A stretch of DNA of 64,000 nucleotides from Rhodothermales bacterium (GCA_958296045.1 CATQHT010000001.1:965395-1029394), one strand, 5' to 3'; positions 10,168-30,094 are shown, counted from the first letter of the stretch. Notes: generated by a model from the letters alone, not told the origin. Program-made: numbers and translations.

Positions 10168-13104
10168 ATGAATTTGTCTTGTCCGATACGCGCCTGATTG
10201 AGCGCTGGCTGCCTATTGCAGCCTTGGGTGAGGAATCGGCACGGGAGCGCCGCTCCATGACGGCCCTCCCTCCAACGTACTACCTGCATGTCTGGTGGGC
10301 TCGAAGGCCGCTTGTGGCTTCGCGAGCTGCGCTGTTGGCCTCTGTCCTGCCAGCAGATGCGGATCGCGATCGCTTTATGCACATGCTTGGCATCCACGGT
10401 GATCCGGTCGGGGCGCGCATAAGGATCAACAAGGCTAGGCAGTTGGGCAAGCGATTCAAAGGGCAAGCATATCCGTATCGGCGCGCATTCACGTATGTGC
10501 CGACTGACTCAGATGCCAACTGGGTGTTTGAGAATCTGGGAGTGGAGTTGAGCGACATCTCGGCGCTTGATCCGACGGCAGGCGGTGGGAGCATCCCATT
10601 CGAGGCTAGGAGGTTGGGGATGTCAACGCTTGCTAACGATTTAAACCCGGTATCTGCCCTGATCATGGATGCGACCATCAACTGGCCGCTCAAATACGGC
10701 GATGCCGTGGTGCAGGAGTACAGTAATCTGGCAAATCGGTTCGTGCAGGCTCGAGAAGTACATTTGGCTCCACTGTTCCCGAGTGAGGCACTGGAAGACA
10801 CGATTGCTACCAACTACCTCTGGGCACACACGGTTATCTGTCCCTACTGCTCAGGTCTGGTGCCGCTGTCGCCGAATTGGCGGCTGAATTCCAGCGGAAT
10901 AGGGATTAGGCTAAGGCCGCACTTAGGATCAGGCCCAGGCAGTATGGACCGTGTATGCGCATTTGAGGTAGTGAACAACGAGACCGATCAATCCGCGGGC
11001 ACGGTCAAGCGCGGTGTGGGCACCTGCCCTTTTCCAGACTGCGAGCGCGTAATCAGCGGTAATATAATCAAGAGCCAGGCACAGGCTGGTAGGATGGGCG
11101 AACAGCTTTATGCCGTGATCACCAAGACGCGCATTAGAGTTACGTTGAAGTCGGGACGCCGGGGTAAGGACAAGTGGAAGCGTGGTTTTCGTGCGCCATG
11201 TCCAGAGGATGACAATAGCGCGGCGGTATCAGCTATGCTGGACCAGAAGCTGCCCGAATGGGAGGTGCGCGATATTGTGCCCAGCGAGCGATTTCCGTCT
11301 GATGGTAACGATCTTCGACCGATCACTTACGGCATGCCACTGTGGCGTGATCTCTTTTCCCCCCGTCAGTTGCTTTGCCATGGCACCAGCGTGGAGGTGT
11401 ACCGGGAGATGCTCTCAGCCGATCGCGCCCGGGGCACCCTCAGCGAGCTGCAGGAGGCCGCCTACGGGTACCTAGCCCTTGCCTTGGACAAGCTCTGTTA
11501 CTTCAACTCCCGTATGTGCGTGTGGAATTCGTACAGGAGTGTAATCGGCAACACGTTTGCACGGCACGACATACTCATTCAAGTGGTCCTATGTGGAGAT
11601 GGCCCCGTTGGTCGCCGGGATAGGCTACGACTGGGCTGTTCGTCAGACCGCCAAATGCATCAGGGAGCTGGTGGCCCTCATCCGCCCGAGTAGCAATGGG
11701 TCTCCGACCAGCGGAATGTTCGAGTCCGAGGCAGACGAGTCAAGTCGACTGACACCGGTCATCGTATCGTGTAAGAGTGGCGATAACCTGGACCATGTGG
11801 CAGACGGCAGCATCGACGTAATCGTGATGGACCCGCCCTACTACGACAACGTCATGTATGCGGAGCTTTCGGACTTCTTCTACGTCTGGCTCAAACGCAC
11901 CGCGGGATACGTATATCCCCTGCTCTTTCGCAGGCATCTGACGGACAAGGACAGCGAGGCGGTCGCCAACCCGGCCAGATTCGCTGGCCAGAAAGGCGCC
12001 CGCAAGCTCGCCAGCCAAGACTACCGAGAGCGGATGGCATCCATCTTCGCCGAATGTCACCGTACGCTCAAGGCAGACGGCATCATGACCGTCATGTTTA
12101 CACACAAGGCGAGTGGTGCATGGGATGCGTTGACTCAGGCATTGATGGAGGCGGGCTTCACCATCACCGCTTCTTGGCCGATCAACACAGAGGCAGCCTC
12201 GAGCCTGCACATACGGGACAAGGCGGCGGCTCGCAGCACGATTTTTCTTGTTTGCCGTCTGCGCAAGGCGCAGCAGGATGCCAGGGGGTACTACTGGGAA
12301 GATGTGGAGCCGCGCGTGAGCCAAGCGGTGCGCGACCGAATCAGTGATTTTCGTGAGGCGGGCATCGCAGGAGTGGACCTGTATTTGGCCTCGTTCGGGC
12401 CAGCGCTGGGAGAATTTTCTCGCCACTGGCCACTCAGAAGAGGAACACCCAAGAGTCCGCCACACGGAGATAAGAGCGCTGATGCAGATCCGTACGCAAC
12501 CACGCCGGATGATGCACTTCAAGCCGCCAGGCGCGAGGTAAAGCAGTGGCGCATGGACCAACTGCTGACATTGAAGGGCAAGGAGGAACTGGATTCGCCT
12601 ACGGCTTTCTATGTCCTGGCGTGGGATACCTTCCGGGCACCCAAATTCTCGTACGACGAAGCGCTCTTGCTAGCGCATGCCGTGGGTGCGAATCTGGACC
12701 GCGACGTGAAGGGGCGCACCGCCATTAAGCAAGGTAGCTACCTGGTCCTCCTTGACAGCAGTCAGCGTGCGCGCCGCGGCACGCTCGGGCCGCCTGACGG
12801 CAAGCGCGGCATGATAGACGCAATCCATCACGCCGCCAACGTCGCACGCACCACATCACTGTCCGACGCGAAAGAGCTGCTGCAGAAAGACGTCAACCTG
12901 CTCGAGGAACGCGGCTTTCAGGTCGCGCTGCAGGCAGTGCTGGAGGTGCTGCCGCCGTCAGCCAAATTCACGGGTATAGACCTTAAGGGCGCCCTGAAAT
13001 CGGCTGGCACCGACTTTGAAACGCTGCTTGATCTTGCCCGCCTTTACCTGCCAGAGGTGATACGCCGGCCCAAGCAGCTTAGGATGTTTGATGAAGTGAC
13101 ATGA
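10164..13104 (+). pseudogene. DUF1156-type Zn-ribbon adenine-specific DNA methyltransferase, interrupted by a +1 frameshift (two ORFs 10128-11693 and 11557-13104)
   Basis: N-terminal half: WWARRPLVASRAA (DUF1156 hallmark), AdoMet motif LDPTAGGGSIPFEARRLG, and Cys pairs CPYCSG / CPFPDC. C-terminal half, in another frame: catalytic VIVMDPPYYDN. The two ORFs overlap at 11557-11693. The sequence reads through sensibly (..GNTFARHD|YSFKWSYVEMAP..) if one nt near 11571 is removed. Confidence 0.8.
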
Positions 13105-16100
13105 GCAGGCTCAGAGACACGGAATGGGGGTATCAGTATACACCAGACAGCTGTGACATTATTCAAGAATTCTACGTCCCCGTGCTCAGGCGGGCACAGC
13201 TGTACCAGAGAACTGCTGGGTATTTCAGCGCCAAAGCACTGGCGCTGGCGGCAAGAGGCATCGAAGGACTAATAAAGAAAGACGGGCGCATGCAGCTCAT
13301 TGTCGGCTGTACACTGGAAAAGCGGGAGGTTGAGGCCATCCAGCGCGGCGAAGAGCTGCGCGCCTGCCTAGAGCGACGGGCAATACGGCTGCCACTTAAT
13401 CCCGGTGACAATTCCATGCACGGCGCGCTCGAACTGCTGTCGTGGATGGTGGCAAACCGATACCTCGAAGTCAAGGTCGCCGTGCCCTGTGACAGCCGAC
13501 GCCAGCCCGTGCCCGGCGACTTGTACCACGAAAAGACCGGCATCATCGCCGACAGTTACGGCGACATAATTGGCTGGACCGGGAGCCTCAATGAGACGGC
13601 AGCCGGCTGGGGGCACAACTGGGAGCGCATTAGTGTTTCAATCAGTTGGGAAGGCTGCAGAGAGCGCAAGCGGGTTCGAGAATTCCAGGCTGACTTTGAA
13701 AGGCAGTGGGCTGACCGGACATCTCACCTTCTGGTTATGGACATGCCGGAAGTCATGCGACGGGACCTGATGCGCTTTGAGCCCAAAAGTCACCTGCCTG
13801 ACCGCATCGATCCCAAGAAGACGTTGCGACTAGACCCGCAGGTAATCGCCAACTGGCGCGCAAAGGTTTGGGCATTCATCGGGCGGGCGCCCCGGATGCC
13901 CGCTGGCGGAAAGCACATGGGCGAAGAGACGTGTCCCATCACGCCATGGCCACACCAGAGCCTTGCATTCGGTCGCATGTACGATCACTGGCCCCCAAGA
14001 CTGCTAATCGCCGACGAAGTGGGGCTCGGAAAAACCATCCAGGCTGGACTGCTGCTGCGCCAAGCATGGCTGTCCCGACGCGCCCGCCGAATACTCATCC
14101 TTGCCCCAAAGGCCCTTCTTCGGCAGTGGCAGATTGAGTTGCGGGAAAAGTTCAACCTTAGCTGGCCCATCTACGACGGTTCACACCTGGTCTGGTACGA
14201 TCCACGCGGCGAACAGGCTGGCACAAGAAAGGCCGTCAGTCGCAACTCCTGGCACCAGGAACCCGCCGTGTTGGCATCCAGCCAACTTGTTCGGCGCAAG
14301 GACCGGGCTGAAGAGGTTTGCAACAACGCCACACCTTGGGACCTGATCGTACTTGACGAAGCACATCACGCGCGTCGACGTAGCGCCGGGTCCAAGCAAG
14401 AAGGCCCACCCAACCTGTTACTGGCGCTCATGCAAAAGCTGAAAGAGCGCTGCGAAGGTTTGGTACTACTTACGGCTACACCCATGCAGATAGCGCCTAT
14501 TGAGGTCTGGGACCTGCTCAACCTTCTGGGAATGCCACTTGAATGGAGTGAGGAGAGCTTTCTGAAGTTCTTCCGCAGCGCTAACTCAGATGATCCATCA
14601 CCCGAGTTGCTGATTGGCCTAGCCCCCCTCTTTAGAGCCGTAGAGCGGGAGTTTGGCAAGATGCAGGACGCTAATGCTCATGGTAACCATAAGGTGTCTC
14701 GTATCAGGGTTAGCAGAGTGCAGCGGGCACTGAGAGATACGGCCACCATCCCTACGAAGCGACTGAATGCTAAAGAAAGACAGGTTGCCTTGCAGGTGAT
14801 GTGTGCGAATACGCCGGTGCGCCGACTGATTTCGCGGCACACCAGGAAACTGCTTCGCTCCTATCACAAAGAGGGACGCATAGACTCGCCCATTGCCGAT
14901 CGTCAGGTCGAGGATAACTTTCTGGAGTTATCCAAAGGTGAGTCGCAACTGTATTCCATGGTAGAGCAATACATTCGCAGAGTCTACAAGCGAGCTACCG
15001 GGAAACACCGATCTGTAGTCGGACTGGTGATGGTCATCTACCGGCGCCGCCTCGCAAGCAGCCTTCGAGCGCTGCGCGAGACACTTGCCAAGCGGCAAGC
15101 ATCACTGGAAGCAGGCAAGTACCACGTTGTAGGAGATGATTTGTCTCATGTGGAGAGCGTTACGGAAGATGATCCAGATGGCCCAGACGAACTGGTAGCC
15201 ATGGAACACGATCCACTCCGATTTGAGGAAGTCAGCACCATCCGCGACTTACTGCATCATGTGGACTCCCTGCCTCCAGACACCAAAGCACGCGCGCTAT
15301 GCGCCACAATTACAGCGCTGCGCCAGGAGGATTACGAGCAGGTGATGGTGTTCACGCAGTACACCGATACCATGGACTTTCTGCGAGATGAATTGACCAC
15401 CTCGCTCACCCTGCGCATCATGTGCTTCTCGGGACGAGGAGGCGAAGTCCCTGACTTTGGTGGGTCCTGGCATACCATCAAGCGCGACGAGGCAAAGGAG
15501 AAATTCAGACGCTATGAAGCTGATGTGTTGCTTTGCACCGAGGCGGCCGCTGAGGGACTCAACTTTCAGTTCTGCGGTGCGCTCATCAATTACGACATGC
15601 CGTGGAATCCGATGAAGGTGGAACAGCGTATCGGGCGGATCGATCGTGTCGGACAAAAGCATCAAACAGTCAGAATCGTTAACCTTCTCTACAAGGGCAC
15701 CATTGAGTCCGATGTGTACATTGCACTCCGCTCCCGCATCAAGCTCTTCGAGGACATCGTAGGGCACCTGCAGCCGATCCTGTCAAGGGTTGCCCGCACA
15801 ATCGACAAGAGGGTGCTTGAAGGCGGGAAACCGGACGGTTTTGATGCTGAGGTATTTGCAGAGGAAGCAGAAGACCTACTCGATCTGGAGTCCATGACCG
15901 CTGCTCCTTTGAGCGTGCCCGAGCGTTTACCGTCGCCAGTCACGATGGATGACCTCGACCATATTCTTCGCATGCCCGAGCTGCTGCCAATGGGCTATGA
16001 GGTAAGGCGGCTTGGACCCCGCGAATACGATTTGAAGTATCCTGACGCGGAGCAACGGGTGCGGATTACTACGAATCCCCAGCACTATGAGCAGCATTCG

Positions 16101-16292
16101 GATAATGTGCAATTGTGGTCTCCCGGTAATCTGGCCTTTGACAATGCTGTTCGCGCAACCGAGAGGCCGAATGCTGACCCCACGTTCACCAGTCTGAGTG
16201 ACTTGCTCGAAGCCTACCGGAGCGAAGTATTCAGCACGCCGGCTGCTGGTGTCACGCCAATCGCGAACGGTCTGATTGCATCGACACTTTAG
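13101..16292 (+). CDS. PLD (HKD) nuclease-domain / SNF2-family helicase fusion protein
   Basis: Single HKD motif YHEKTGIIAD...WTGSLNETA in the N-terminal ~200 aa. SNF2 motifs follow: LIADEVGLGKTIQAG (I), LIVLDEAHHARR (II), LLLTATPMQ (III) and VEQRIGRIDRVGQ (VI). The ATGA overlap with the methylase gene is at 13101-13104. Confidence 0.85.
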   Translation: MSRLRDTEWGYQYTPDSCDIIQEFYVPVLRRAQLYQRTAGYFSAKALALAARGIEGLIKKDGRMQLIVGCTLEKREVEAIQRGEELRACLERRAIRLPLNPGDNSMHGALELLSWMVANRYLEVKVAVPCDSRRQPVPGDLYHEKTGIIADSYGDIIGWTGSLNETAAGWGHNWERISVSISWEGCRERKRVREFQADFERQWADRTSHLLVMDMPEVMRRDLMRFEPKSHLPDRIDPKKTLRLDPQVIANWRAKVWAFIGRAPRMPAGGKHMGEETCPITPWPHQSLAFGRMYDHWPPRLLIADEVGLGKTIQAGLLLRQAWLSRRARRILILAPKALLRQWQIELREKFNLSWPIYDGSHLVWYDPRGEQAGTRKAVSRNSWHQEPAVLASSQLVRRKDRAEEVCNNATPWDLIVLDEAHHARRRSAGSKQEGPPNLLLALMQKLKERCEGLVLLTATPMQIAPIEVWDLLNLLGMPLEWSEESFLKFFRSANSDDPSPELLIGLAPLFRAVEREFGKMQDANAHGNHKVSRIRVSRVQRALRDTATIPTKRLNAKERQVALQVMCANTPVRRLISRHTRKLLRSYHKEGRIDSPIADRQVEDNFLELSKGESQLYSMVEQYIRRVYKRATGKHRSVVGLVMVIYRRRLASSLRALRETLAKRQASLEAGKYHVVGDDLSHVESVTEDDPDGPDELVAMEHDPLRFEEVSTIRDLLHHVDSLPPDTKARALCATITALRQEDYEQVMVFTQYTDTMDFLRDELTTSLTLRIMCFSGRGGEVPDFGGSWHTIKRDEAKEKFRRYEADVLLCTEAAAEGLNFQFCGALINYDMPWNPMKVEQRIGRIDRVGQKHQTVRIVNLLYKGTIESDVYIALRSRIKLFEDIVGHLQPILSRVARTIDKRVLEGGKPDGFDAEVFAEEAEDLLDLESMTAAPLSVPERLPSPVTMDDLDHILRMPELLPMGYEVRRLGPREYDLKYPDAEQRVRITTNPQHYEQHSDNVQLWSPGNLAFDNAVRATERPNADPTFTSLSDLLEAYRSEVFSTPAAGVTPIANGLIASTL

Positions 16293-16386
16293 ATAATGAT
16301 GCACGCGGGGACTTGCCTGAAGCCGCATGCTCCGCTGCCATTGCCATCCCGGCTTGGCTTTACACAAATCTAACTGAGCTATACCC

Positions 16387-17676
16387 ATGATTTCGTTATT
16401 AGCCATTGCCGACGCTCATATCGGGCGTTATCCTTCTAGGGTACCGCGCGATCAGAAGGAATACTCCATCTCGGAAGTCTGGATGGAATCCATCGATTAT
16501 GCCATTGAGCATGGCGTCCATGCCGTTGTGCTTGCAGGCGACATCATCGACACCGCGAACAGGTACTTTGAAGCCTTCGGTCCCCTGCGCAGAGGGGTAA
16601 CCAAGCTCACTAACGCAGGCATCCCCGTATTCGCAGTCGCGGGTAACCATGACTACAATGTGCTGCCCCGCCTAGCCGACGACATGGGCCGAGAACGCTT
16701 CTGCCTCCTCGGGCGCGGTGGTAAATGGGAAACTGTCCCACTACAAGTCGATAGCCAGGTGGTAGCACAGATCGTGGGATGGTCCTTTCCCAGTGAAGAA
16801 TGCCGAACGTCACCGCTGGACACGTTTCCTGGAGTCTCTTCGGAGGAGCCCTTGATCGGCCTAATTCATGGTGACCTGGATGCCAGAGATTCCCATTATG
16901 CACCGCTCGCGCTGCCCGATCTGCAGCGGCAATCTGTAGCTGTGTGGATTCTCGGCCATATACATACATCCAGATACGTTGCCACCGGTGGCGTGCCCGT
17001 CCTGTACCCAGGTTCGCTGCAAGCGCTTGACCCAGGTGAACCTAGTGACCACGGACCATGGTTGGTGGAAATTGATGCGGGTGGGCACGTGGAAGCAAAG
17101 CAATTACCTATAGCCACGGTCCGGTACGTCACGTTAATCATAGATCTGACCGATGTCTCAAGTGAGTCCGAAGCTCAGTCGCTGATCACTGAGAAAGTTA
17201 CACTCGATTCGGATCGCCTCAGCCAGAACTATCCGTCACTGCGCCATGCCTCCTATCGCCTTACCCTGGTGGGTGCAACGCCCGCACACAGGGCGCTGTC
17301 GCTCACGGATTGGGCCAACATTGGATATCTGGATATCGAGCACGGCGACCTCCAAACCTCCGTGGATCGCGTGTTCGTGGAAACTGTGCCAGCCCGCAAC
17401 CTGAAGGACATCGCTCGGTTGAGCGATCCGCCTGCAATGGTCGCCGGATGGGTCCTCGAGTTGGATAACATGCAAGAAGATCTGGATCTCTCCCCCGATT
17501 GCCAAGACCTGCTTCAGCAGGCCACCGAAGAAGCCAACAAGGTCATTTCTCAGTCGAGATACCGGCAGTTGCAGGGGACCTCGATACATAGCAGCGACGT
17601 TGCCCGCCTGCTCGTCTCTAAGGGCAGACTCCTGGTTGACACCCTAATGGCTCAGAAAGACGATTCTCATGAGTAA
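16387..17676 (+). CDS. Mre11/SbcD-like calcineurin-type metallophosphoesterase (YhaO-like)
   Basis: Phosphoesterase motifs in canonical order: IADAHIG, LAGDIID, VAGNHDY, LIHGD, LGHIHT. An 8-nt overlap (ATGAGTAA) joins it to the downstream ATPase gene. Confidence 0.8.
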   Translation: MISLLAIADAHIGRYPSRVPRDQKEYSISEVWMESIDYAIEHGVHAVVLAGDIIDTANRYFEAFGPLRRGVTKLTNAGIPVFAVAGNHDYNVLPRLADDMGRERFCLLGRGGKWETVPLQVDSQVVAQIVGWSFPSEECRTSPLDTFPGVSSEEPLIGLIHGDLDARDSHYAPLALPDLQRQSVAVWILGHIHTSRYVATGGVPVLYPGSLQALDPGEPSDHGPWLVEIDAGGHVEAKQLPIATVRYVTLIIDLTDVSSESEAQSLITEKVTLDSDRLSQNYPSLRHASYRLTLVGATPAHRALSLTDWANIGYLDIEHGDLQTSVDRVFVETVPARNLKDIARLSDPPAMVAGWVLELDNMQEDLDLSPDCQDLLQQATEEANKVISQSRYRQLQGTSIHSSDVARLLVSKGRLLVDTLMAQKDDSHE

Positions 17677-20491
17677 ACGAATTGTATTCAAGAACATCTC
17701 AGTAGACCAGATGTACGGCCGGAGCTTTGGTAGCCTCGAGCTCAAAGCGCTAACAGAACATATCAACGTTGTACATGGAGTCAATGCATCGGGCAAGTCA
17801 ACGCTAGCGCAGGCGCTGCAATGCGTGATGCTGCTGCAAAATGCAAAGGCCATAAAGCCAAACGTAGACGCTACCCTCGAAACAGGCGACGGCCAATTGG
17901 ATGTGGAAGTCAGGAAATCAAGACGCTTTTGCCGCCTGAATGGCGAAGATATCCAGTGGAACCCGGAACTGATAAGGCCCAAGAGCTACCACATTTCGCT
18001 GCACGCCCTGTTGGGCGCCGAAGCGGGTGATAGCTCGTTCGCGGAGGAAATTATGAAGGAAGCCTCTGGAGGATTTGACGTCCGCAAAGCTGCAATGGAG
18101 CTCGCCTTTGAACAGCTCACCAGCAATTTGACCGCCGGGCACAATAGTGCCAAAAGAGTCAAGAACGCCTCCAACCGATTAAAGGAGGTCGACCGGAGAC
18201 AAAAGAAGCTGGCAAGCGACCGGAAACGGCTGGATCGGCTGCATGAAGAGCAACATACTGCTGCGTCAGCTGCGAACCACGTCAGCCTGTTCACTAAAGC
18301 CCTGGCATTTCACGAAGCACGACGCACGCATAAGGATGCTCGCCAAAGTGTCGAGGCCCTCCCCAAAGTGCTGCAAAAGGTTGACGTGGATCAGCTGCCT
18401 GACAAGCTGCAGAAGATTCGCGACGACATAACGCGCTTAGAGGCCGAGATAGCGCAGCGCGAGCGCGCGGCCACAGAGGCCATGCGACACATCAGCGCCA
18501 GTTCACTGCCCGAATCTGGACTGCCCGAGGGCTTCACGGAGAAAGTCAGCAAGGAGATACAGCGACTTGCGGACGTCGACGGCCGGATAGAGACCATAAC
18601 GGAATCTCTGGCGGAATTCAGGAGGAAAGCCGAAAAAGCCTGGCAGGGGCTTTCTGGCGGCGCAGATTCTCAGCAGAATGCTCCACAGTTCAACCGTAAA
18701 TCTGTGGAACGTCTCGGGTCCGTTATTCGCCGAGCATTTGACGCGGCAGCGGAGAAGGCAGCGCTTAGAGCGAAAGAAAAAGCGTTTCAGGTCGAAGGGG
18801 GTGAGGCGCTTGAGCAGACTGAGAAAACACTTCGTAGAGCACTAGAGTCTCTTGTTGATTGGCTTCGCGCACCGACACATACTCTAGGTAGGGGGCGCAT
18901 GGTCCGTGTTGTTTTGGGCATCGCGGCAACATTGTCTCTGGTAAGCGCGTGGCTTGCAGGCGTGGATACCGTGCGCGGGTGGCCAGGGATTGCAGCGGCC
19001 CTGCTTATCGCATTGGCCTACTACCGGCTCAGCATGGGCGAAAGAACGTATATGCGCCAGAAAGCGGAGGTAGAAAGCAAAATTGAGCGTCCAAGTCTGG
19101 ACCTGGAACTTCCAGCCACGTGGACAAACGACACCGTGGGAAAGCTGCTTGACGACGTGCTGGCTCGCCTTGCATCCATCAATGTTGACAAAAAGAAGCT
19201 CGACAGATTGACGTTCCTTACCGAGGATCGCGAATCTAAAGAGCCTGAGTGGCAGCGGGTACAGGAGGAAGTTCGTCGCATCGAGGAAGCAACCGGCCTT
19301 CAGGGACTCTCGGAAGAAACGCTATTTTACGTGATAGAGCGCATTCTCGACTTCCAGCGCGCCAAGGATGAGGTAAGCGGACTAGAAGCAAGACTTGCGA
19401 AAGCGCAGGGAATGCAGACGCGCCATTTGGCCTACATCAATGCTTCCTTAGCACCGTACGGTCTTGCCGAAGTCGATTCACCTGCGGAGGCCGCAGCGGC
19501 ATTGGAAGACCTCCGCACCGCCAGTCAGAAACTGCAGGGCCACCTCAAGGATCTCGCCGGCATTGAGCGTGAGAAAGAAGCCCTAACATCGCAGCGCGCG
19601 CGGCTAATCGCTAAGCGTCAGCAACTCTTTGCAGAGCTCGACCTGGATGACCAGGATCGCGAGTCCCTGAATGTGCTGGTTCGGCAGAACAAAAAACTAC
19701 GCATACGACGCGAAAAGCTGGGCGAGGCGAAGACACTGTTGGATGACAAGGAGCGCGTGCTTCGCCGATCCCCAGGGTATTCTGAGGACCTAAAGCGCGC
19801 GAACACCGCCGAGCTTGAGGCTGAACTGGAAACGTTTACGACTCTGGCCGCCAAGAAAGACGAAATTCAGCGCGAAATCACCGTGATCACCACCCAGGTG
19901 AAATCCTTGGAGGAAGGCAGTGCACTGGAGAAAGCTAAGGCTGAGTTGGATGAGGCACGGGCGAGATTAAGAATGGATCGTGACGCCAAAGTAGCCAATG
20001 CAGTTGGTGGTGTCCTGATCGAACAGCTCCTGACGTACATCCACGGGCAAGGCATGCCGAGGGTCTTCAGGAAGGCCAAGAATAATTTCCTGCTCGTCAC
20101 CAATGGGCGCTATGAGCTGCGCCTTAAAGGAAACGTGTTTCACGCATATGATACCGAACAGCGACGTACTCAGAATATCCAGGAGCTATCTAGTGCAACC
20201 CGCGTGCAGCTGCTGCTTTGTGTGAGGATCGCATTTGTGGAATCCCAGGAAACAGAATACCGGTTTCCGCTAACGCTGGATGAGGCCTTGGCGAATAGCG
20301 ACGATCAACGTGCTAGCACGGTGATAGAAACTATTGCGCGGCTCGCGATGCAGCGACAGGTGATCTACTTCACCGCGCAGGAAGACGAAGTTCAGAAATG
20401 GAAGAATCATGCAGGTGATGTGCCGGTCAAGTTGATTCGGCTGAACGCCTCAACTCCGGGTAGCGGCATATTCGCGGGCGCACAGACGTAG
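17669..20491 (+). CDS. Rad50/SbcC-like SMC-type ATPase with long coiled coils (YhaN-like)
   Basis: Walker A VHGVNASGKSTLAQAL at the N-terminus. About 700 aa of E/K/R/L/A/Q-rich sequence follows. The C-terminal signature-like ELSSATRVQLLL and Walker B PLTLDEALANSD complete a split ABC head. A central hydrophobic hairpin sits at ~aa 411-455. Confidence 0.8.
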   Translation: MSKRIVFKNISVDQMYGRSFGSLELKALTEHINVVHGVNASGKSTLAQALQCVMLLQNAKAIKPNVDATLETGDGQLDVEVRKSRRFCRLNGEDIQWNPELIRPKSYHISLHALLGAEAGDSSFAEEIMKEASGGFDVRKAAMELAFEQLTSNLTAGHNSAKRVKNASNRLKEVDRRQKKLASDRKRLDRLHEEQHTAASAANHVSLFTKALAFHEARRTHKDARQSVEALPKVLQKVDVDQLPDKLQKIRDDITRLEAEIAQRERAATEAMRHISASSLPESGLPEGFTEKVSKEIQRLADVDGRIETITESLAEFRRKAEKAWQGLSGGADSQQNAPQFNRKSVERLGSVIRRAFDAAAEKAALRAKEKAFQVEGGEALEQTEKTLRRALESLVDWLRAPTHTLGRGRMVRVVLGIAATLSLVSAWLAGVDTVRGWPGIAAALLIALAYYRLSMGERTYMRQKAEVESKIERPSLDLELPATWTNDTVGKLLDDVLARLASINVDKKKLDRLTFLTEDRESKEPEWQRVQEEVRRIEEATGLQGLSEETLFYVIERILDFQRAKDEVSGLEARLAKAQGMQTRHLAYINASLAPYGLAEVDSPAEAAAALEDLRTASQKLQGHLKDLAGIEREKEALTSQRARLIAKRQQLFAELDLDDQDRESLNVLVRQNKKLRIRREKLGEAKTLLDDKERVLRRSPGYSEDLKRANTAELEAELETFTTLAAKKDEIQREITVITTQVKSLEEGSALEKAKAELDEARARLRMDRDAKVANAVGGVLIEQLLTYIHGQGMPRVFRKAKNNFLLVTNGRYELRLKGNVFHAYDTEQRRTQNIQELSSATRVQLLLCVRIAFVESQETEYRFPLTLDEALANSDDQRASTVIETIARLAMQRQVIYFTAQEDEVQKWKNHAGDVPVKLIRLNASTPGSGIFAGAQT

Positions 20492-20775
20492 GTCTGGCGA
20501 TCTGACGTGGTATGTCCCGTATCGCAACGACGGGAATGTGTGGCGCAGGGCAAGAACCTGATAACTGCGTGGGGGATGGGGTAGACTTCCTACCATTTAA
20601 GCAAGGCCATTTCAGGGAAAAGTGGGGCTCAGAGGGCAATCGATTCATCCGTGACCGGTGGAAGCGGTCAAGGCGAAATGGAGTCGGGTAAATCGGGAGG
20701 CGTGGCGAGTAACCGGGTCGGTATATTGACGCGCAATGTCTGCAGTTGGAAAACTCGGCACCGGTCCACCGCTGA

Positions 20776-21036
20776 ATGACGCTGGTACTCACGCATGTAG
20801 GACTCAAACTGAAGACCATCCCCAACCACCAACACCTGCCCAAGCTCCAAAAGGCGTTTATGGATGCCAGGACCCAAATCCCAGAATCCCCCTCTAGCCC
20901 TCTTTCCACTAATTTTGGCCCACCCCCCGCCATCTTTGACCAACTGGTTCACAATGCGCACCACATTTCACTCAAGGGAGAATCCATGCACAAAACACAC
21001 GCCCTGCGGAGCATCAAACCCTACGACCTGGCATGA
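20776..21036 (+). pseudogene. decayed 3' remnant of an IS21-family istB-like ATPase gene (left copy)
   Basis: ..AIFDQLVHNAHHISLKGESMHK.. resembles the IstB C-terminal consensus (AILDRLvHnahri.LkGeSmRk). It is homologous to the better-preserved inverted copy at 22889-23280. Confidence 0.55.
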
Positions 21037-21137
21037 CACATACACATGTGTGCATAAGCCGATTTCGTGCCCCTGGCGCAAGACTTAGGGTGGCGCGCTT
21101 GAAGCCAGAATTGGTGGCGCAGTGGAGCGGAATAGGC
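20934..21137 (+). repeat. left arm of ~205-bp inverted repeat (IS end remnant)
   Basis: Aligns by eye at roughly 75-80% identity with the reverse complement of 22785-22990. Example: GCGCTTGAAGCCAGAATTGGTGGCGC versus GCGCTTGAAGCTGGAATTGGTGGCGC. Confidence 0.75.
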
Positions 21138-21242
21138 AGCGAGTACCTGCCAGTGAAGTTTGAGGTGGCCAACAGCAGAATTCCTTCAAAGCTGGCCCGA
21201 ATCTGGGACAACGCCGAGACGAACACATACCGGATTATCGAG

Positions 21243-22139
21243 ATGGACACACTGCCCTTAATCGCAGCCATGCAACTCGAAGGAGTCGGACCCAAGAAGT
21301 TGCTCAACGTTGTAGATGACTTGAGTGACGGGAAAAGTCAGTTCGCTAAAGTGGCCAATAGGCATTGGAGATGTTCCGTATATGCGGCTGACAGAGCTTG
21401 GGAACAGGCGCAGCGACTCTTGGAGATGTGCGAAAAACGAGATATCCTGCCGATAGCCTTTTCGAACCAAGACCAGTACCCTGAGCGGTTGCATGTGCTT
21501 CGGGTAGCGAATGGCAAAAATGGTGCCCGCGACGATAGACCGCCCGTCGTGTACGTCAAAGGGAACATTGATGCTGTGCACCGACCGAAACCCGTTGTGG
21601 CTATCGTGGGCACTAGGAAACCCACAGACCGGGGACATCGAAGTGCCTTTAAGCTTGGAAGAATCGCAGCCACTTATGGCGTGCCCGTCGTAAGCGGACT
21701 AGCGTACGGGTGTGATCAGCGCGCGCACGAAGGCTGTATAGAAAACAAAGGCACTGCCATAGCCGTGCTTGCACATGGGCTGGACACAATTTATCCGTCT
21801 AAAAACAAAGGGCTTGCTAAGGCAATTCTAGACATGGGGGGCTGCTGGATCAGCGAATTCCCCCCAGGAACGCCTGTGCAGAAGTGGAGCTTCGTGCAAC
21901 GCGACCGGCTTCAGAGTGCGCTTTCTGACGTTGTAGTTATCGCTCAGACCGGCGTTAAGGGTGGAACGCAACACACGATTCGCTTTGCCAGAGAGCAGGG
22001 AAGGCAGCTCGCCTGTGTTGTGCCCGAAGCAGAGGCTAACCATAGAGTCGAAGAAGGCAATCGTAAACTGCTGCAGGACAAGAACGTCGAGCGGCTGGCT
22101 GTGCCCCGAGACTTGAAACGAATGCTGGACAGGCTTTAG
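21243..22139 (+). CDS. DprA/Smf-like (SLOG/Rossmann) DNA-processing protein family member
   Basis: Core VAIVGTRKPTDRGHRSAFKLGRIAATYGVPVVSGLAYGCDQRAHEGCI and AVLAHGLDTIYPSKN match DprA blocks. An N-terminal HhH-like LIAAMQLEGVGPKKLLNVV is present. The listed start at 21033 lies inside the IS-derived repeat, so ATG 21243 (or GTG 21153) is preferred. Confidence 0.75.
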   Translation: MDTLPLIAAMQLEGVGPKKLLNVVDDLSDGKSQFAKVANRHWRCSVYAADRAWEQAQRLLEMCEKRDILPIAFSNQDQYPERLHVLRVANGKNGARDDRPPVVYVKGNIDAVHRPKPVVAIVGTRKPTDRGHRSAFKLGRIAATYGVPVVSGLAYGCDQRAHEGCIENKGTAIAVLAHGLDTIYPSKNKGLAKAILDMGGCWISEFPPGTPVQKWSFVQRDRLQSALSDVVVIAQTGVKGGTQHTIRFAREQGRQLACVVPEAEANHRVEEGNRKLLQDKNVERLAVPRDLKRMLDRL

Positions 22140-22213
22140 GCACGCGTGGGCGCAGCAAGTGTTGTGCCCCGAATGCTACTGCTTGATCGCGTGACCCATC
22201 CATCCCGAGGCAG

Positions 22214-22711
22214 ATGTTGCTTTTTGATTTTGATCAGGTTCTGGTGGACACCGAACCAATCTCGTACTTGCGAAGGGCCAGAGACTGGTCGACTTACAGG
22301 CGAGAGGTTACCAAGCTGCATCCTTGCGATGGCATCAATGCGCTCATTCTCACAGCGGCAGAGTTGGGGCACATGATGGCAATCGTGACCCAGAGTCCTA
22401 GTTTCGTGCCGAAGATATTCGTTCGGAAAGAACGCTGGCCGATCGACATCGTCGTGGGTTGGCACGACTTCAGGCGCCGCAAGCCGCACCCATTGTGCCT
22501 GCAACAAGCTATGAAACGCGCCCAAGCCCAGCCAAAGGCATGTTATCACATTGGTGATCTACCAGCCGATACGGCGGCCTCGAAGAATGCGGGCGTGTAT
22601 TCCATTGGCGCAGGTTGGGCCGCGATCGATCCCGCAGCGCTTCGCAGGTCACAGCCTGACTACTATTTTGAGACGGTAGAGCAACTGCACCGCTTTATCT
22701 CCGTCTTATAA
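22214..22711 (+). CDS. HAD-superfamily phosphatase/hydrolase
   Basis: HAD motif I LLFDFDQVLVDT (DxD), motif II IVTQSP and motif IV IGDLPADTAASKNAG. Confidence 0.75.
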   Translation: MLLFDFDQVLVDTEPISYLRRARDWSTYRREVTKLHPCDGINALILTAAELGHMMAIVTQSPSFVPKIFVRKERWPIDIVVGWHDFRRRKPHPLCLQQAMKRAQAQPKACYHIGDLPADTAASKNAGVYSIGAGWAAIDPAALRRSQPDYYFETVEQLHRFISVL

Positions 22712-22784
22712 GGCCTCTTGAAACACTAACCAGCCAACGTAAATCATCGGGTTGAAAAAGCTCGCGCGGTAGGGATAGGATATG

Positions 22785-22990
22785 TGTGCCTATTCCAATC
22801 AACAGCGCCACCAATTCCAGCTTCAAGCGCGTCACCCTACGTCTTGCATCAGGTGCACGACATCGGCTTCTGCACATATATGTATGTGTCATTCCTGATC
22901 GTAAGGCTTGATGCTCCGCGGGGCGTGTGTTGTGCGCATGGATGCACCCTTGAGCGAGATGCGGTACGCACGGTGAACCAGTCGGGCAAG
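22785..22990 (-). repeat. right arm of ~205-bp inverted repeat (IS end remnant)
   Basis: Reverse complement aligns with 20934-21137 (see left arm). Confidence 0.75.
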
Positions 22991-23280
22991 GATGGCATCG
23001 ACCAAGGTAGGATCTTCATTGATGTCGTGCCACTGTTCCACGGGGATATACGGACTTGGCTGGCCAAGATGGTGGATCGATTCCGGTATCGGTCGTCGAA
23101 CAGCTCCAGGAGGTAGCACTGTTACGTGACGCTCAATTCGCTGGTGCCCCAGTCGTTGGTGATCAGGACATCGATCCTTAACACCTTGCGCAGGAGATTC
23201 CGATAGGTGTCATCGGCGCGCACGAGGTGCATATCCTGCAGGAGTCGCGAAAGGTGGTGATATTGTGCTGAACACCCCAT
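22889..23280 (-). pseudogene. frameshifted remnant of IS21-family istB-like ATPase gene (right copy, C-terminal ~130 aa)
   Basis: Reading across frames on the minus strand gives ..RIDVLITNDWG.. (Walker B-like), LLELFDDRYRNRSTILASQ, then PVEQWHDINEDPTLVDAILARLVHRAYRISLKGASMR. This is the IstB order of motifs, interrupted by a stop and frameshifts. Confidence 0.6.
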
Positions 23281-23408
23281 ACATTCACCCACCTATGTGT
23301 CATCGAAGAGCAACCCTTAACTTGGTGCGGCCATGCGCTGGTCAGTGCATCGTTATCACGGGGATTGCATAAGCGTAAGAGGCCGTAGGTGTACTCTGTA
23401 ATTACATC

Positions 23409-26162
23409 ATGGGAGGGCATCGGTCCTCGTTATTCAGCTCTTTACCAATGACTACACGCTCAGAATTGGCATTTGCCGCCCTTGTAGGGACCTTCTCCGC
23501 TCTTGCTTTTGCTGGATGCGCGCTGGAGCTGGATCCGGTTGTTACGGCCAGCCTCCCCACTGATGCGGATCGCGTCTGGGTAGGGCCGGAATTCTATGCC
23601 AACCGGCTGATGGACTGGCAACTTAGCGAAGGTCGTATCGAGTACCTAGAAGGCAGAGCCGCGAAACCCATGCGTACCCTTCACCTGCTAACGCGGGCTC
23701 TGAGCGACGCACCAGGTGCCATGAACCTTGCTGTCCGCACCGGACCACTCGAGGCCGAAGGGCCGTCGCATCAGTACACGTGGACCGGATTCCTTGTGGG
23801 TGCAGGAGGCACGCATGTGGATTTCAGGATCAGCAGCTTGGTGCATCACTGGCCCGCAGAGGATGGCGGACTGATCTTCGCCATCGACGGCACCGGCCGC
23901 CTGGTCGCACGGGATAATGCCCACAATACATCGGCGAAGGGTCCGCGCGCGGATTTCACGGAAGGCGACTGGCCGCTACTAGAAGCTACCGAATCAGAAG
24001 GCTCGCTGCCCCCTTATAGCGATGTTACGTTAACACTGACAGCCGAGCCGCAGGGTGACGACGGCTACCACGTGACGTTGACCGCCATAGCCGACGGTAT
24101 CCCAGCGGCCTGGGCCCGGTACGAACGTCTGAAGTCGGAGCACTTCAGCGGGAATGTCGCGTTGGTCTCTCACAACAGCGCCCGTCAGGAAGGCGGCGGC
24201 TACTGGTTTCGGGACTGGAGCATAGAAGGCACCAAGGTGGAGCACCATCCCGATCGCGCTTTCGGGCCGATCATGAGCACCATGTACACCGTTAGCGACC
24301 ACGTGCTGAAGATGACGGCACAACTCGGACCCATTGGAGATCAGGATTCGAGGGAGGCTCGCTTGGAGATGGCGACTGGTGCAGCACCTCGCCAATGGGA
24401 GCAAGTGGCCTCTGGCATCATCGATCCGGCCAGCTTTACCGCCACCTTGAGAGTCGATGACTTTGTGTTGGAGGAAGACCGCCTATACAGGGTGGCCTAT
24501 GACTTGCGCGGGGCCCAAGGAAGGTCCGTAACCCACTACTATGAGGGCACCATCCGATACCCAAAGGTAGAAGACGATGAGTTTGTTTTGGCCTCACTGA
24601 ACTGTCAGAACATTTCCCAAGGTCGCGACCTGGTCTGGAATCACAGCACCATCTGGTATCCCCACAGTGAACTGACAAGTGCAGTGGCAACCCATGATCC
24701 CGACATGCTGTTCTTTGCTGGCGATCAAATCTATGAGAGTGGGCTGGCTGGCATCGTTCGTGAGCCACTGAAAAAAGCGCTACTCGATTACCAGTACCAC
24801 TGGTACCGCTTTATCTGGGCCTTCGGAGACCTGATGCGCGACCGTCCGACGGTCACGATTCCAGATGACCATGACGTGTATCACGGCAACATCTGGGGTG
24901 ACGGGGGCAAGAAGGCAGAAGGCAGCGCCCGCCCGTTGTCGGACAATGGCGGCTATATCATGGATGCCAGATTTGTCAATGCGGTACATCGCACCCAGCT
25001 CGCTCATTTGCCTGACCCTTATGATCCCACCCCTATCGATCAGGATATCTCGGTTTATTATACAAACCTTGATCTTGGTGGGATGAGCTTTGCTATCGTG
25101 GCGGACCGCATGTGGAAGTCAACGCCGCGCGAGGCCGTTCCCGAAGCCGAGGTGCGCAACGGTTGGCCAAAAAACCGCGACTACGACGCGACCACGGTCA
25201 CCGATGCAACGCTGTTGGGTGCACGTCAGTTGGCCTTTCTCGACGAATGGGCGCAGGACTTCGAAGATGACACCTGGATGAAGGTGATGCTTTCGCAGAC
25301 CTTGTTCAGCAACTTAGCGACGTTGCCGGAAGGCTCCTTTGATGACAGTGTCGTGCCACAGATGCGTTACGCCGAGCCCGGCGAATACATCAGCACCGAT
25401 CACATGGGTACGGACATGGATTCTAACGGATGGCCCCAAGCGGGTCGTAACCGGGCACTGCGCACCATCCGCAAAGGGTTCGCTTTCCATGTCGCAGGAG
25501 ACCAGCACCTGGGCAGCTTTGTACAGTACGGCATTGATGACTTCAACGATGGCGCTAACGCCTTCATTTCCCCAGCCATCGCGAATATCTGGCCTCGGCG
25601 ATGGTTTCCGCCAGAGCCTGGCGCCAACCGCGCCCCAGGTGCGCCCGCGTATACAGGAGAGTACCTTGATGGCTTCGGCAACCGGATGACCGTACACGCA
25701 GTGGCAAACCCCGTCAGGTCGCACATGGAGCCCGAAGCGTTGTACGATCGTGTTCCCGGATACGGCATCATCCGCTTCCGGCGCGCCGATCGCACCATCA
25801 CGTCGGAAGCCTGGCCCCGATGGGTGGATCCAATGGCCGAAGATGCGGCGCCGTATGACGGATGGCCCGTGGTAGTGACACAGGAAGACAACTACGCCCG
25901 CCAGGCAGCAGGTTACCTTCCGCGCTTGGAAATATCGGGCGCATTGGATCCGGTGGTACAGGTCCGCCATGCGGCCACGCAGGAGGTAGTATACACGCTG
26001 CGCATCAACGGTACTATCTATCGACCCAAGGTGTTCGACCCGGCGGCAGAGTACGATGTCATGATCACCGGTCGTGAGGGCGCTACGGCGCTGGTAGAGG
26101 GCATGCAGGTGACAGAGGATCAGGAGGCGGTGGTCAACGTGACATTCGCGTCGGAGCAGTGA
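23409..26162 (+). CDS. PhoD-like (alkaline phosphatase D family) metallophosphatase, lipoprotein
   Basis: Signal/lipobox ..AFAALVGTFSALAFAGCA. PhoD-type blocks MLFFAGDQIYE and TIPDDHDVYHGNIWG. An alternative start is ATG 23448. Confidence 0.7.
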   Translation: MGGHRSSLFSSLPMTTRSELAFAALVGTFSALAFAGCALELDPVVTASLPTDADRVWVGPEFYANRLMDWQLSEGRIEYLEGRAAKPMRTLHLLTRALSDAPGAMNLAVRTGPLEAEGPSHQYTWTGFLVGAGGTHVDFRISSLVHHWPAEDGGLIFAIDGTGRLVARDNAHNTSAKGPRADFTEGDWPLLEATESEGSLPPYSDVTLTLTAEPQGDDGYHVTLTAIADGIPAAWARYERLKSEHFSGNVALVSHNSARQEGGGYWFRDWSIEGTKVEHHPDRAFGPIMSTMYTVSDHVLKMTAQLGPIGDQDSREARLEMATGAAPRQWEQVASGIIDPASFTATLRVDDFVLEEDRLYRVAYDLRGAQGRSVTHYYEGTIRYPKVEDDEFVLASLNCQNISQGRDLVWNHSTIWYPHSELTSAVATHDPDMLFFAGDQIYESGLAGIVREPLKKALLDYQYHWYRFIWAFGDLMRDRPTVTIPDDHDVYHGNIWGDGGKKAEGSARPLSDNGGYIMDARFVNAVHRTQLAHLPDPYDPTPIDQDISVYYTNLDLGGMSFAIVADRMWKSTPREAVPEAEVRNGWPKNRDYDATTVTDATLLGARQLAFLDEWAQDFEDDTWMKVMLSQTLFSNLATLPEGSFDDSVVPQMRYAEPGEYISTDHMGTDMDSNGWPQAGRNRALRTIRKGFAFHVAGDQHLGSFVQYGIDDFNDGANAFISPAIANIWPRRWFPPEPGANRAPGAPAYTGEYLDGFGNRMTVHAVANPVRSHMEPEALYDRVPGYGIIRFRRADRTITSEAWPRWVDPMAEDAAPYDGWPVVVTQEDNYARQAAGYLPRLEISGALDPVVQVRHAATQEVVYTLRINGTIYRPKVFDPAAEYDVMITGREGATALVEGMQVTEDQEAVVNVTFASEQ

Positions 26163-28567: not shown

Positions 28568-28589
28568 CCCTGGAGAGAAGCCACCGGAT

Positions 28590-30086: not shown

Positions 30087-30094
30087 CGCTAAGC

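What the first reader, a model, noticed from the sequence alone, without database searches (positions are those of the whole stretch)
16387..20491. Mre11/Rad50-like nuclease-ATPase pair directly appended (94-bp gap) to the methylase-helicase module
Seen: a metallophosphoesterase with all five Mre11/SbcD-type motifs and a 940-aa split-head ABC/SMC ATPase overlap by 8 nt (ATGAGTAA). They follow the PLD-SNF2 gene on the same strand after only 94 bp. Knowledge: the pair resembles B. subtilis YhaO/YhaN (SbcE/SbcF-type) DSB-processing proteins. SMC/Rad50-like ATPases paired with nucleases recur in defence systems (Lamassu, Wadjet, Gabija-like logic). Inference: the pair may be a second effector or DNA-end-sensing arm of a larger six-gene system rather than housekeeping repair. 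I do not know this particular combination as a described system.
Basis: partly seen in the sequence, partly recalled or inferred. Interest (0 to 1): 0.7.

Follow-up and report, generated by a model that had tools for sequence, protein, structure and literature searches.

The report
Core repair gene pair beside defence island
The Mre11/Rad50-like nuclease-ATPase pair is real, but it is a conserved chromosomal DNA-end-processing gene pair of this bacterial lineage, and a four-gene anti-phage module was inserted next to it, so the two do not form one six-gene system.

Summary
Window 16387-17676 encodes a 429-aa Mre11/SbcD-fold nuclease with all five motifs. Window 17669-20491 encodes a 940-aa split-head SMC/Rad50-superfamily ATPase. 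The genes overlap by 8 nt and lie 94 nt after the PLD-SNF2 gene.

The six-gene-system interpretation is not supported, because the finding's own refutation criterion is met. Related Rhodothermales genomes keep the same backbone (T9SS protein, nuclease, ATPase, PhoD, sulfatase, PD40, NIF3) and have none of the upstream genes. Across 85 loci encoding the nuclease family, the ATPase follows directly in 81, and no DUF499, DUF7680 or DUF1156 gene lies within 10 kb. Across 80 loci of the upstream module (a complete Type-2 BREX-related, or Hma, system), none carries the pair.

The pair matches the B. subtilis SbcE/SbcF (YhaN/YhaO) description: no zinc hook, and a conserved hydrophobic hairpin at the coiled-coil apex. 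The locus is a recurrent insertion site for IS clusters, DISARM and a DprA-like gene.

One residual lead remains. Two other independent SNF2+methylase modules abut this pair elsewhere, so a loose association is not excluded (about 10%).

The parts
16387..17676 (+). Mre11/SbcD-fold metallophosphoesterase nuclease (SbcF/YhaO-like), 429 aa. It has a catalytic domain, a capping domain and a C-terminal helical region.
17669..20491 (+). SMC/Rad50-superfamily ABC ATPase (SbcE/YhaN-like), 940 aa. Walker A is at nt 17777-17803, the signature at nt 20186-20209 and Walker B at nt 20267-20284.
17669..17676 (+). 8-nt start/stop overlap (ATGAGTAA), implying translational coupling. Relatives typically overlap by 4 nt.
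18893..19033 (+). Codons 409-455 encode two hydrophobic helices joined by a Pro-containing turn at the coiled-coil apex, where Rad50/SbcC carry the CxxC zinc hook. The feature is conserved in position in every family member examined.
16293..16386 (+). 94-nt gap between the PLD-SNF2 gene and the nuclease gene, which is the right-hand junction of the inserted island. No consensus promoter, terminator or significant fold was found.
6662..16292 (+). Context, not part of the pair: a complete Type-2 BREX-related / Hma module made of DUF499 ATPase, DUF7680, DUF1156 N6-MTase (split by a frameshift near 11569-11603) and HKD(PLD)-SNF2 helicase. It is absent from syntenic relatives.
1805..6320 (+). Conserved backbone upstream: two paralogous T9SS (Por_Secre_tail) proteins. 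In relatives they lie directly upstream of the nuclease gene.
20492..23408 (+). Second lineage-specific insertion between the ATPase and PhoD: a weak IstB/IS21-like fragment, a DprA-like (ShosA-like) gene at 21033-22139, and a HAD hydrolase at 22214-22711.
23409..32461 (.). Conserved backbone downstream: PhoD, sulfatase, PD40 (-), NIF3 (-) and 3-keto-disaccharide hydrolase, in the same order as in relatives.

Best explanation
The two genes encode a vertically inherited, chromosomal Mre11-Rad50-like DNA-end-processing complex of the SbcE/SbcF (YhaN/YhaO) type.

Shown: an Mre11-fold nuclease is translationally coupled to an SMC-superfamily ATPase that has long coiled coils.

Inferred mechanism, by analogy with SbcCD/Mre11-Rad50: the ATPase head binds the nuclease dimer and DNA ends, and ATP hydrolysis licenses endo- and exonucleolytic end processing upstream of recombination. 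At the coiled-coil apex, a conserved hydrophobic helical hairpin replaces the zinc hook. It probably anchors or dimerises the complex, in the membrane or through a hydrophobic interface.

The adjacency to the methylase-helicase genes is a by-product. A self-contained four-gene Type-2 BREX-related (Hma) defence island was inserted into the intergenic region about 94 nt upstream of the nuclease gene. This locus repeatedly acquires insertions in this lineage. The pair may be read through transcriptionally from the island, but it is not a component of that system.
For: (1) Synteny. tblastn shows PorA/B, nuclease, ATPase, PhoD, sulfatase, PD40, NIF3 and 3-keto hydrolase in the same order in L001-L005. 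The DUF499, DUF7680, MTase, PLD-SNF2, DprA-like and HAD proteins have no hit there (gene tables). L175 shows the island-free backbone with two Por genes.

(2) Forward survey. In 85 loci from at least 8 phyla, the ATPase lies directly downstream in 81, and the other 4 reach a contig end. Hits to DUF499, DUF7680 and MTase were 0/85.

(3) Reverse survey. All 80 DUF499 loci have DUF499, DUF7680, a single-ORF MTase and PLD-SNF2. Nuclease and ATPase hits were 0/80 by phmmer. By HMM the nuclease gave 0 hits and the ATPase one marginal hit (E 0.008). Thirty of these loci have at least 1.3 kb downstream of the helicase.

(4) Hotspot behaviour. IS clusters lie between the two genes in L006 and upstream in L174. 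DISARM lies downstream in L020/L023. A Type ISP R-M lies nearby in L005.

(5) Repair-type neighbours elsewhere. AddA/UvrD-PD-(D/E)XK helicases occur in 7 of 85 loci. AddAB-like, MrfA/MrfB-like and TDP genes occur on haloarchaeal plasmids.

(6) Family features match the SbcE description (PMC2811018): no CxxC, a hydrophobic central domain with a conserved Pro, and an sbcD-like gene immediately upstream. PF13514 (AAA_27) is hit by 22 of 25 members.
Against: No experiment or expression data exists. The 94-nt gap has no recognisable terminator or promoter, so co-transcription with the island is possible.

The pair is more diverged from its closest relatives (54% and 42% identity) than the flanking housekeeping genes are (59-73%).

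Two further independent SNF2+N6-MTase modules abut this pair: DISARM in L020/L023, and an Eco57I-type MTase plus PLD-SNF2 on a Haloferax plasmid. By a rough guess of the base rate, not a measurement, this is more than expected by chance.

The family also occurs on haloarchaeal plasmids, so it is not strictly a core gene everywhere.

Direct sequence comparison with B. subtilis YhaN/YhaO was not possible. The window ATPase itself does not reach E 0.01 against PF13514.
Confidence: 0.82

Rival explanations
1. Six-gene system. The nuclease-ATPase pair is a dedicated second effector or DNA-end-sensing arm of the DUF499/DUF1156/PLD-SNF2 system and is co-inherited with it.
For: The genes share a strand, the gap is 94 nt, and no terminator was detected. 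SMC-like ATPase plus nuclease pairs do occur in defence systems, and there are weak PADLOC hits to mad3, JetC, LmuB and AriA.
Against: Co-occurrence is 0/85 and 0/80 in the two directions. Syntenic relatives lack the module. The module is complete on its own and has its own HKD nuclease. The main text of the BR survey has no occurrence of Mre11, SbcC, SbcD or calcineurin. The PADLOC hits score 17-39 bits and cover only the P-loop or coiled coil.
Confidence: 0.03
2. Loose functional partnership. The pair is a host end-processing complex that preferentially co-localises with SNF2+N6-methylase restriction-like systems (BR, DISARM, PLD-SNF2/Eco57I-MTase). It might, for example, resect or degrade DNA nicked or cut by them, as RecBCD does after classical restriction.
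For: There are three independent adjacencies among roughly 95 loci: this window, L020/L023 with DrmD (1008 bits) plus an Eco57I/MmeI-type MTase 178 nt after the ATPase, and the Haloferax plasmid with MTase and PLD-SNF2 about 2.3 kb upstream on the same strand.
Against: The three cases have different systems, different sides and different spacing. More than 90% of loci have no such neighbour. L020 and L023 represent one event. Haloarchaeal megaplasmids are rich in defence genes. The locus also collects IS elements and unrelated genes, which a plain insertion hotspot explains. No control family was measured.
Confidence: 0.1
3. Stand-alone defence or anti-plasmid system. The pair itself restricts foreign DNA, by Wadjet/Lamassu/SbcCD-like logic, and therefore sits in variable regions.
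For: The family has a patchy distribution across phyla, plasmid-borne copies in haloarchaea at 33-37% identity, faster divergence than neighbouring genes, and variable flanks.
Against: Synteny with housekeeping genes is stable across many Rhodothermales species (20 of the 85 loci carry PhoD). The recurrent neighbours are repair genes (AddA-like, MrfAB-like). The nuclease has no PADLOC model hit. The only experimental data on the family show DSB-repair and competence phenotypes (PMC2811018).
Confidence: 0.05

Closest known systems
Bacillus subtilis SbcE/SbcF (YhaN/YhaO) (Krishnamurthy et al. 2010, PMC2811018)
   Same: An SbcD/Mre11-like nuclease gene sits immediately upstream of an SMC-like ATPase of about 940-960 aa. 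The coiled coils are long, there is no CxxC hook, and a unique central domain has a hydrophobic first half and a conserved proline. PF13514 (AAA_27) is hit by 22 of 25 family members.
   Different: No direct sequence comparison to the Bacillus proteins was possible here. The window protein itself misses PF13514 at E 0.01. Most non-Rhodothermales members carry an extra C-terminal domain of about 230 aa. The host is a Rhodothermales (Bacteroidota/Rhodothermota-type) organism, not a Firmicute. There is no yhaM-like neighbour.
SbcCD / Mre11-Rad50
   Same: The nuclease has the Mre11 fold with all five phosphoesterase motifs. The ATPase is a split-head ABC protein with a coiled coil. The genes are adjacent and translationally coupled. 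Foldseek hits include 3tho, 6s6v, 7yzo and 7zr1.
   Different: A hydrophobic hairpin replaces the zinc hook. The gene order is nuclease then ATPase (in E. coli it is sbcD then sbcC, I believe; this is from memory). Sequence similarity of the ATPase is too low for any PDB phmmer hit.
Type-2 BREX-related (BR) system, also PADLOC Hma and the NCBIfam DUF499_antiphage / phospholipD_antiphage set (PMC12839542)
   Same: This describes the upstream module at 6662-16292: DUF499 ATPase, a small stand-alone gene, DUF1156 N6-MTase and an N-terminal HKD-Snf2 helicase, in the canonical order.
   Different: The nuclease-ATPase pair is not part of it (0/80 loci). The small gene scores as DUF7680 here, whereas the paper names DUF3780. 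The MTase is split by a frameshift in this window.
Lamassu (LmuB+LmuA), Wadjet (JetABCD), and Gabija/PARIS OLD-ABC systems
   Same: The general logic is an SMC- or ABC-type ATPase paired with a nuclease.
   Different: Only weak partial PADLOC hits were found (17-39 bits). There are no JetA/B/D, LmuA/C or TOPRIM partners. The nuclease is Mre11-type. The pair is conserved in housekeeping synteny.

Membership tests
SbcE/SbcF (YhaN/YhaO) family | SbcD/Mre11-like phosphoesterase encoded immediately upstream of the SMC-like ATPase | tested here: met
   the ATPase is directly downstream in 81 of 85 loci
SbcE/SbcF (YhaN/YhaO) family | SMC-like ATPase lacking the CxxC hook, with a central domain whose first half is hydrophobic and which contains a conserved proline (PMC2811018) | tested here: met
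   No central CxxC was found in about 75 family members, and every one has a hydrophobic segment (Kyte-Doolittle above 1.6) at about aa 400-470. A Pro is the majority residue in the turn. The AF2 model has helices at 407-429 and 435-472.
SbcE/SbcF (YhaN/YhaO) family | Sequence homology to the B. subtilis YhaN AAA domain (Pfam PF13514, AAA_27; the link of this model to YhaN is from memory) | tested here: inconclusive
   22 of 25 family members hit PF13514 (best E 3e-6), but the window protein does not at E 0.01.
SbcE/SbcF (YhaN/YhaO) family | Role in DSB repair or competence | not testable with these tools
   Only indirect evidence is available: AddA-like and MrfAB-like neighbours in some loci.
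Canonical Mre11-Rad50 / SbcCD | Mre11 fold with five phosphoesterase motifs | tested here: met
Canonical Mre11-Rad50 / SbcCD | Rad50/SbcC zinc hook (CxxC) at the coiled-coil apex | tested here: not met
   The window protein has no CxxC, and relatives have none in the central region.
Canonical Mre11-Rad50 / SbcCD | Rad50-type ABC head (Walker A, signature, Walker B, D-loop) | tested here: met
   The motifs are invariant. Foldseek hits the SMC superfamily including Rad50 and SbcC, but without specificity for Rad50 over other SMCs. The usual H-loop His position reads T-A-Q.
Type-2 BR / Hma defence system (as a component of it) | Conserved co-occurrence with DUF499, DUF1156-MTase and HKD-Snf2 | tested here: not met
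   0/80 BR loci carry the pair. 0/85 pair loci carry DUF499, DUF7680 or this MTase. Syntenic relatives lack the module.
Lamassu | LmuB SMC ATPase with LmuA effector (and LmuC) | tested here: not met
   LmuB hits score only 17 bits (E about 3e-4), and there is no LmuA- or LmuC-like gene.
Wadjet | JetA, JetB, JetC and JetD together | tested here: not met
   The JetC hit scores 32 bits over coiled coil only, and there are no JetA, JetB or JetD genes.

The most novel reading that the evidence does not exclude
The hook-less, hydrophobic-hairpin Mre11-Rad50-like pair is a preferred genomic and functional partner of SNF2-helicase/N6-methylase immunity modules (BR/Hma, DISARM, PLD-SNF2+Eco57I-MTase). 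It would act as the end-processing or degradation arm after those systems mark or nick foreign DNA. Three independent adjacencies in bacteria and a haloarchaeal plasmid would then be the first trace of this.
Probability: 0.1. Interest if true: 0.7.

Novelty: new member of a known kind. Interest (0 to 1): 0.25.

Why it matters
Guilt-by-association calls around defence islands are only as good as the synteny check. Here a plausible six-gene system dissolves into a core repair operon plus an inserted four-gene island.

The useful residue has two parts. First, the SbcE/SbcF-type complex, studied only in B. subtilis, is widespread: Rhodothermales, Planctomycetota, Gemmatimonadota, Chloroflexota, Myxococcota and haloarchaeal plasmids. 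Its hydrophobic apex hairpin in place of the zinc hook is strictly conserved, and that is a testable structural question. Second, this locus behaves as an insertion hotspot, with a small, unproven excess of SNF2+methylase neighbours.

Tried and rejected
- Looking up the window's own nuclease in the contig index found nothing on record.
- The word-indexed homologue search with the ATPase found only 10 proteins. Relatives were taken instead from the genes downstream of nuclease homologues.
- phmmer of the ATPase against PDB found no hits. Structure prediction and Foldseek were used instead.
- The sigma-70 promoter and terminator scan and RNA folding of the 94-nt gap found nothing above the shuffled background.
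- The Bacteroidota-type TAnnTTTG box is absent from the gap on the + strand and is not enriched in the window, at 16 matches against 12.8 expected. Many Rhodothermales relatives do have a TAtATTT box 25-35 nt upstream of the nuclease start, so the promoter question stays open.
- A search for direct or inverted repeats flanking the island gave only short chance-level matches. There is no integrase and no bordering tRNA.
- ARAGORN's 98-nt 'tRNA-Ala' at 10285-10382 lies inside the MTase ORF and is taken as a false positive.
- GC content does not distinguish the island.
- No third gene is conserved next to the pair across phyla.
Full report
**Observation**

They overlap by 8 nt, ATGAGTAA. They start 94 nt after the stop of the PLD-SNF2 gene at 13101-16292.

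The first protein is a calcineurin-like phosphoesterase (Pfam Metallophos). Its only PDB sequence relatives are Mre11 and SbcD. In an alignment of 20 homologues, the five Mre11 motifs are invariant or nearly so: D9-x-H11, G51-D52, G86-N87-H88-D89, H161 and G190-H191-x-H193. An AlphaFold model built from that alignment is confident (pLDDT 91.5, pTM 0.83). All 50 best Foldseek matches in the PDB are Mre11/SbcD structures, including full-length Mre11-Rad50 complexes.

The second protein has an N-terminal Walker A (GVNASGKST). Its C-terminal end carries the ABC signature (LSSATRVQ), Walker B (LDEAL) and a D-loop. All of these are invariant in 25 relatives. AAA_23 scores above its Pfam cut-off. The AlphaFold model (pLDDT 80) shows two head lobes joined by long helices. 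It matches Smc5/6, condensin, Rad50, MukB, JetC and SbcC.

**What lies upstream**

The region 6662-16292 encodes four genes:
- a DUF499 AAA+ ATPase (HmaC, NCBIfam DUF499_antiphage);
- a DUF7680 protein;
- a DUF1156 N6-methyltransferase (HmaB);
- an N-terminal PLD/HKD-SNF2 helicase (HmaA, NCBIfam phospholipD_antiphage).

This is the 'Type-2 BREX-related' system of a 2026 survey. That system consists of a DUF499 ATPase, a small stand-alone gene, a DUF1156 MTase and an HKD-Snf2 effector. It is self-contained and has its own nuclease (PMC12839542). The main text of that paper has no occurrence of Mre11, SbcC, SbcD or calcineurin.

**Synteny test**

The nuclease has full-length homologues at 54-36% identity in many genomes. 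The closest ones are Rhodothermales MAGs at 54% and 47% identity. There the gene order is T9SS (Por_Secre_tail) protein, nuclease, ATPase of about 930 aa, PhoD, sulfatase, PD40/Tricorn (-), NIF3 (-) and 3-keto-disaccharide hydrolase.

The window has the same genes in the same order:
- Por genes at 1805-6320;
- PhoD at 23409-26162;
- sulfatase at 26972-28567;
- PD40 at 28590-30086 (-);
- NIF3 at 30095-30985 (-);
- 3-keto hydrolase at 31043-32461.

tblastn of all window proteins against these loci finds every backbone protein at 38-73% identity. It finds none of DUF499, DUF7680, the MTase halves, PLD-SNF2, the DprA-like protein or the HAD protein. Another relative (L175, 44% identity) shows the whole backbone, including two Por paralogues, with no insert at all.

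So the Hma/BR module is a roughly 10-kb insertion between the Por gene and the nuclease gene. A second insertion of about 2.6 kb sits between the ATPase and PhoD. It carries a weak IstB-like fragment, a DprA-like gene and a HAD hydrolase.

**Two-way co-occurrence**

*Forward survey.* A pattern scan of 185,579 species genomes found 363 loci encoding relatives. I analysed the best 80, together with 5 metagenomic loci. These come from Rhodothermales, Planctomycetota, Gemmatimonadota, Chloroflexota/Thermomicrobiales, Myxococcota, Bradymonadales, Verrucomicrobiota, Fermentibacteria and Bacillota.
- The ATPase homologue lies directly downstream in 81 of 85 loci. The other four run into a contig end. 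The typical overlap is 4 nt.
- Hits to DUF499, DUF7680 or the MTase were 0 of 85.
- An SNF2 helicase hit occurred in 2 loci, L020 and L023.

*Reverse survey.* I took 80 metagenomic loci encoding DUF499 relatives at 46-55% identity.
- Wherever the contig is long enough, they show DUF499, DUF7680, a single-ORF MTase of about 985 aa and PLD-SNF2.
- None contains a nuclease or ATPase homologue by phmmer.
- With family HMMs, the nuclease gave 0 hits and the ATPase gave one marginal P-loop hit at E 0.008.
- Thirty of the loci have at least 1.3 kb downstream of a complete helicase gene, and 59 have at least 1.3 kb upstream.

The pair and the module are independent units.

**The locus as an insertion site**

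- In L006 (54% identity), an 8.9-kb cluster of Mutator, DDE and IS21/Mu-type transposases separates the nuclease gene from the ATPase gene.
- In L174, ISL3 and DDE transposases sit just upstream of the nuclease.
- In L001, Tn5-like transposases lie upstream of the Por genes.
- In L005/L009, a Type ISP/IIG R-M enzyme lies one gene further upstream.
- In L020/L023, a DISARM DrmD (1008 bits) and an Eco57I/MmeI-type methylase follow the ATPase after 178 nt.

Repeated, varied insertions at different positions around a conserved pair fit an integration hotspot.

**What the pair is**

Every ATPase examined (about 75) lacks a central CxxC zinc hook. Each has a strongly hydrophobic segment at a fixed distance from the N-terminus, about residues 400-470. 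In the window these are residues 409-455: two helices joined by a Pro-containing turn, at the apex of the predicted coiled coil.

This matches the published description of B. subtilis SbcE (YhaN). That description includes:
- closest similarity to SbcC;
- no CxxC;
- a unique central domain whose first half is hydrophobic, with a conserved proline;
- insolubility on overexpression;
- an sbcD-like gene (yhaO/sbcF) next to it;
- mutants that are DSB-sensitive and mildly impaired in transformation (PMC2811018).

PF13514 (AAA_27) is hit by 22 of 25 family members, although not by the window protein at E 0.01. I could not compare directly with the Bacillus sequences, so membership is probable but not proven.

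Most non-Rhodothermales members are about 1150 aa, because of an extra conserved C-terminal domain of about 230 aa that the window's clade lacks.

Neighbours elsewhere are lineage-specific housekeeping genes. The only recurrent DNA-related neighbour is an AddA-like UvrD-PD-(D/E)XK helicase-nuclease, found in 7 loci.

Full-length copies at 33-37% identity also sit on nine haloarchaeal plasmids. There they lie next to AddAB-like genes, MrfA/MrfB-like helicase-exonuclease and TDP genes, or primase/polymerase genes.

**Mechanism**

Shown: an Mre11-fold nuclease is translationally coupled to an SMC-superfamily ATPase. Inferred by analogy: the two form an SbcCD-like complex in which ATP binding and hydrolysis by the head gates nuclease access to DNA ends or hairpins, feeding recombinational repair. 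The hydrophobic hairpin plays the apex role of the zinc hook, either by membrane anchoring or by hydrophobic dimerisation.

**Residual lead**

Besides this window, two independent cases place an SNF2 helicase plus a large N6-methylase next to the pair. One is DISARM downstream in L020/L023. The other is an Eco57I-type MTase followed by a PLD-SNF2 helicase about 2.3 kb upstream, on the same strand, on Haloferax plasmid NZ_CP106967.

By a rough estimate this is more than a random locus would show. I did not measure the base rate; it is a guess. The systems, sides and spacings also differ. Megaplasmids are rich in defence genes. The locus collects unrelated inserts too. I rate a real association at about 10%.

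**What could not be settled**

The 94-nt gap has no consensus promoter, terminator or significant structure, so read-through from the island is possible. I could not check whether the genome has a separate canonical sbcCD, because only the window was available. The pair diverges faster than its neighbours, at 54% and 42% identity against 59-73%. That is common for coiled-coil proteins and is not diagnostic.

**Verdict**

The six-gene-system inference is not supported. The pair is a new, non-Firmicute member of the little-studied SbcE/SbcF kind, sitting beside an inserted Type-2 BR/Hma island.

Noticed in passing
window 10128-13104 (junction about 11569-11603): The DUF1156 N6-methyltransferase of the BR/Hma module is split into two overlapping ORFs of 521 and 515 aa. 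A homologue of 981 aa aligns at residues 1-482 in one frame and 464-978 in another, and all 49 complete relatives have a single ORF. This is either a real frameshift, meaning an inactivated methylase and possibly a decaying system, or an assembly error near short C/G runs.
   Followed up: partly
window 20492-23408: A roughly 2.6-kb insertion sits between the ATPase and PhoD and is absent from relatives. It holds a DprA-like gene (21033-22139) that scores higher on PADLOC ShosA (226 bits) than on TIGR00732 dprA (172 bits, below the 191 cut-off). It also holds a HAD hydrolase (22214-22711) and a weak IstB/IS21-like fragment (20776-21036). No ShosT-like partner was found.
   Followed up: partly
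window 18893-19033 (ATPase residues 409-455), and all relatives: A hydrophobic two-helix hairpin is conserved at a fixed position (about aa 400-470) in every family ATPase across at least 8 phyla. It takes the place of the Rad50/SbcC zinc hook and may be a membrane anchor or a dimerisation element.
   Followed up: partly
L008, L010, L028-L083 ATPases (alignment A3, columns about 1150-1400): Most family members carry an extra C-terminal domain of about 230 aa with conserved motifs (HLW..D, WGQL, GRG.PVDR) and no Pfam match. The window's Rhodothermales subclade has lost it.
   Followed up: no
L006 11279-20173; L174 485-9916: IS clusters (Mutator, DDE_Tnp_1, IS21/Mu-like, ISL3) are inserted between the nuclease and ATPase genes in L006, and directly upstream of the nuclease in L174. 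The operon is physically split in the closest relative.
   Followed up: partly
L020 8205-15275; L023 14193-21260: A DISARM-like DrmD (1008 bits) plus an Eco57I/MmeI-type methylase starts 178 nt after the ATPase stop in two related Rhodothermales MAGs.
   Followed up: partly
L171/L172 (Haloferax alexandrinus plasmid NZ_CP106967.1, 361421-375922): An Eco57I-type MTase (1291 aa) and a PLD-SNF2 helicase (PADLOC 'HKD+Snf2') lie about 2.3 kb upstream of a homologous nuclease-ATPase pair on the same strand, inside a defence-rich region that includes a CRISPR ring nuclease.
   Followed up: partly
L166-L171 (haloarchaeal plasmids): Full-length copies of the bacterial-type pair (33-37% identity) occur on nine haloarchaeal plasmids, which suggests inter-domain transfer. 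In two of them (Haloarcula, Natrinema) the pair follows a conserved 1285-aa ATP-binding protein and a 562-aa NrS-1-polymerase-HBD protein.
   Followed up: partly
L011-L030, L045: 25-35 nt upstream of the nuclease start: A conserved TAtATTT box, resembling the Bacteroidota -7 promoter element, precedes the nuclease gene in many Rhodothermales relatives. It is not present in the window's 94-nt gap.
   Followed up: partly
window 10285-10382: ARAGORN calls a 98-nt 'tRNA-Ala(cgc)' inside the methyltransferase ORF. This is probably a false positive.
   Followed up: no
window 1805-3994 and 4143-6320: Two tandem paralogous T9SS-sorted proteins of about 727 aa lie here. Some relatives have one copy and others two (L006, L175).
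   Followed up: no
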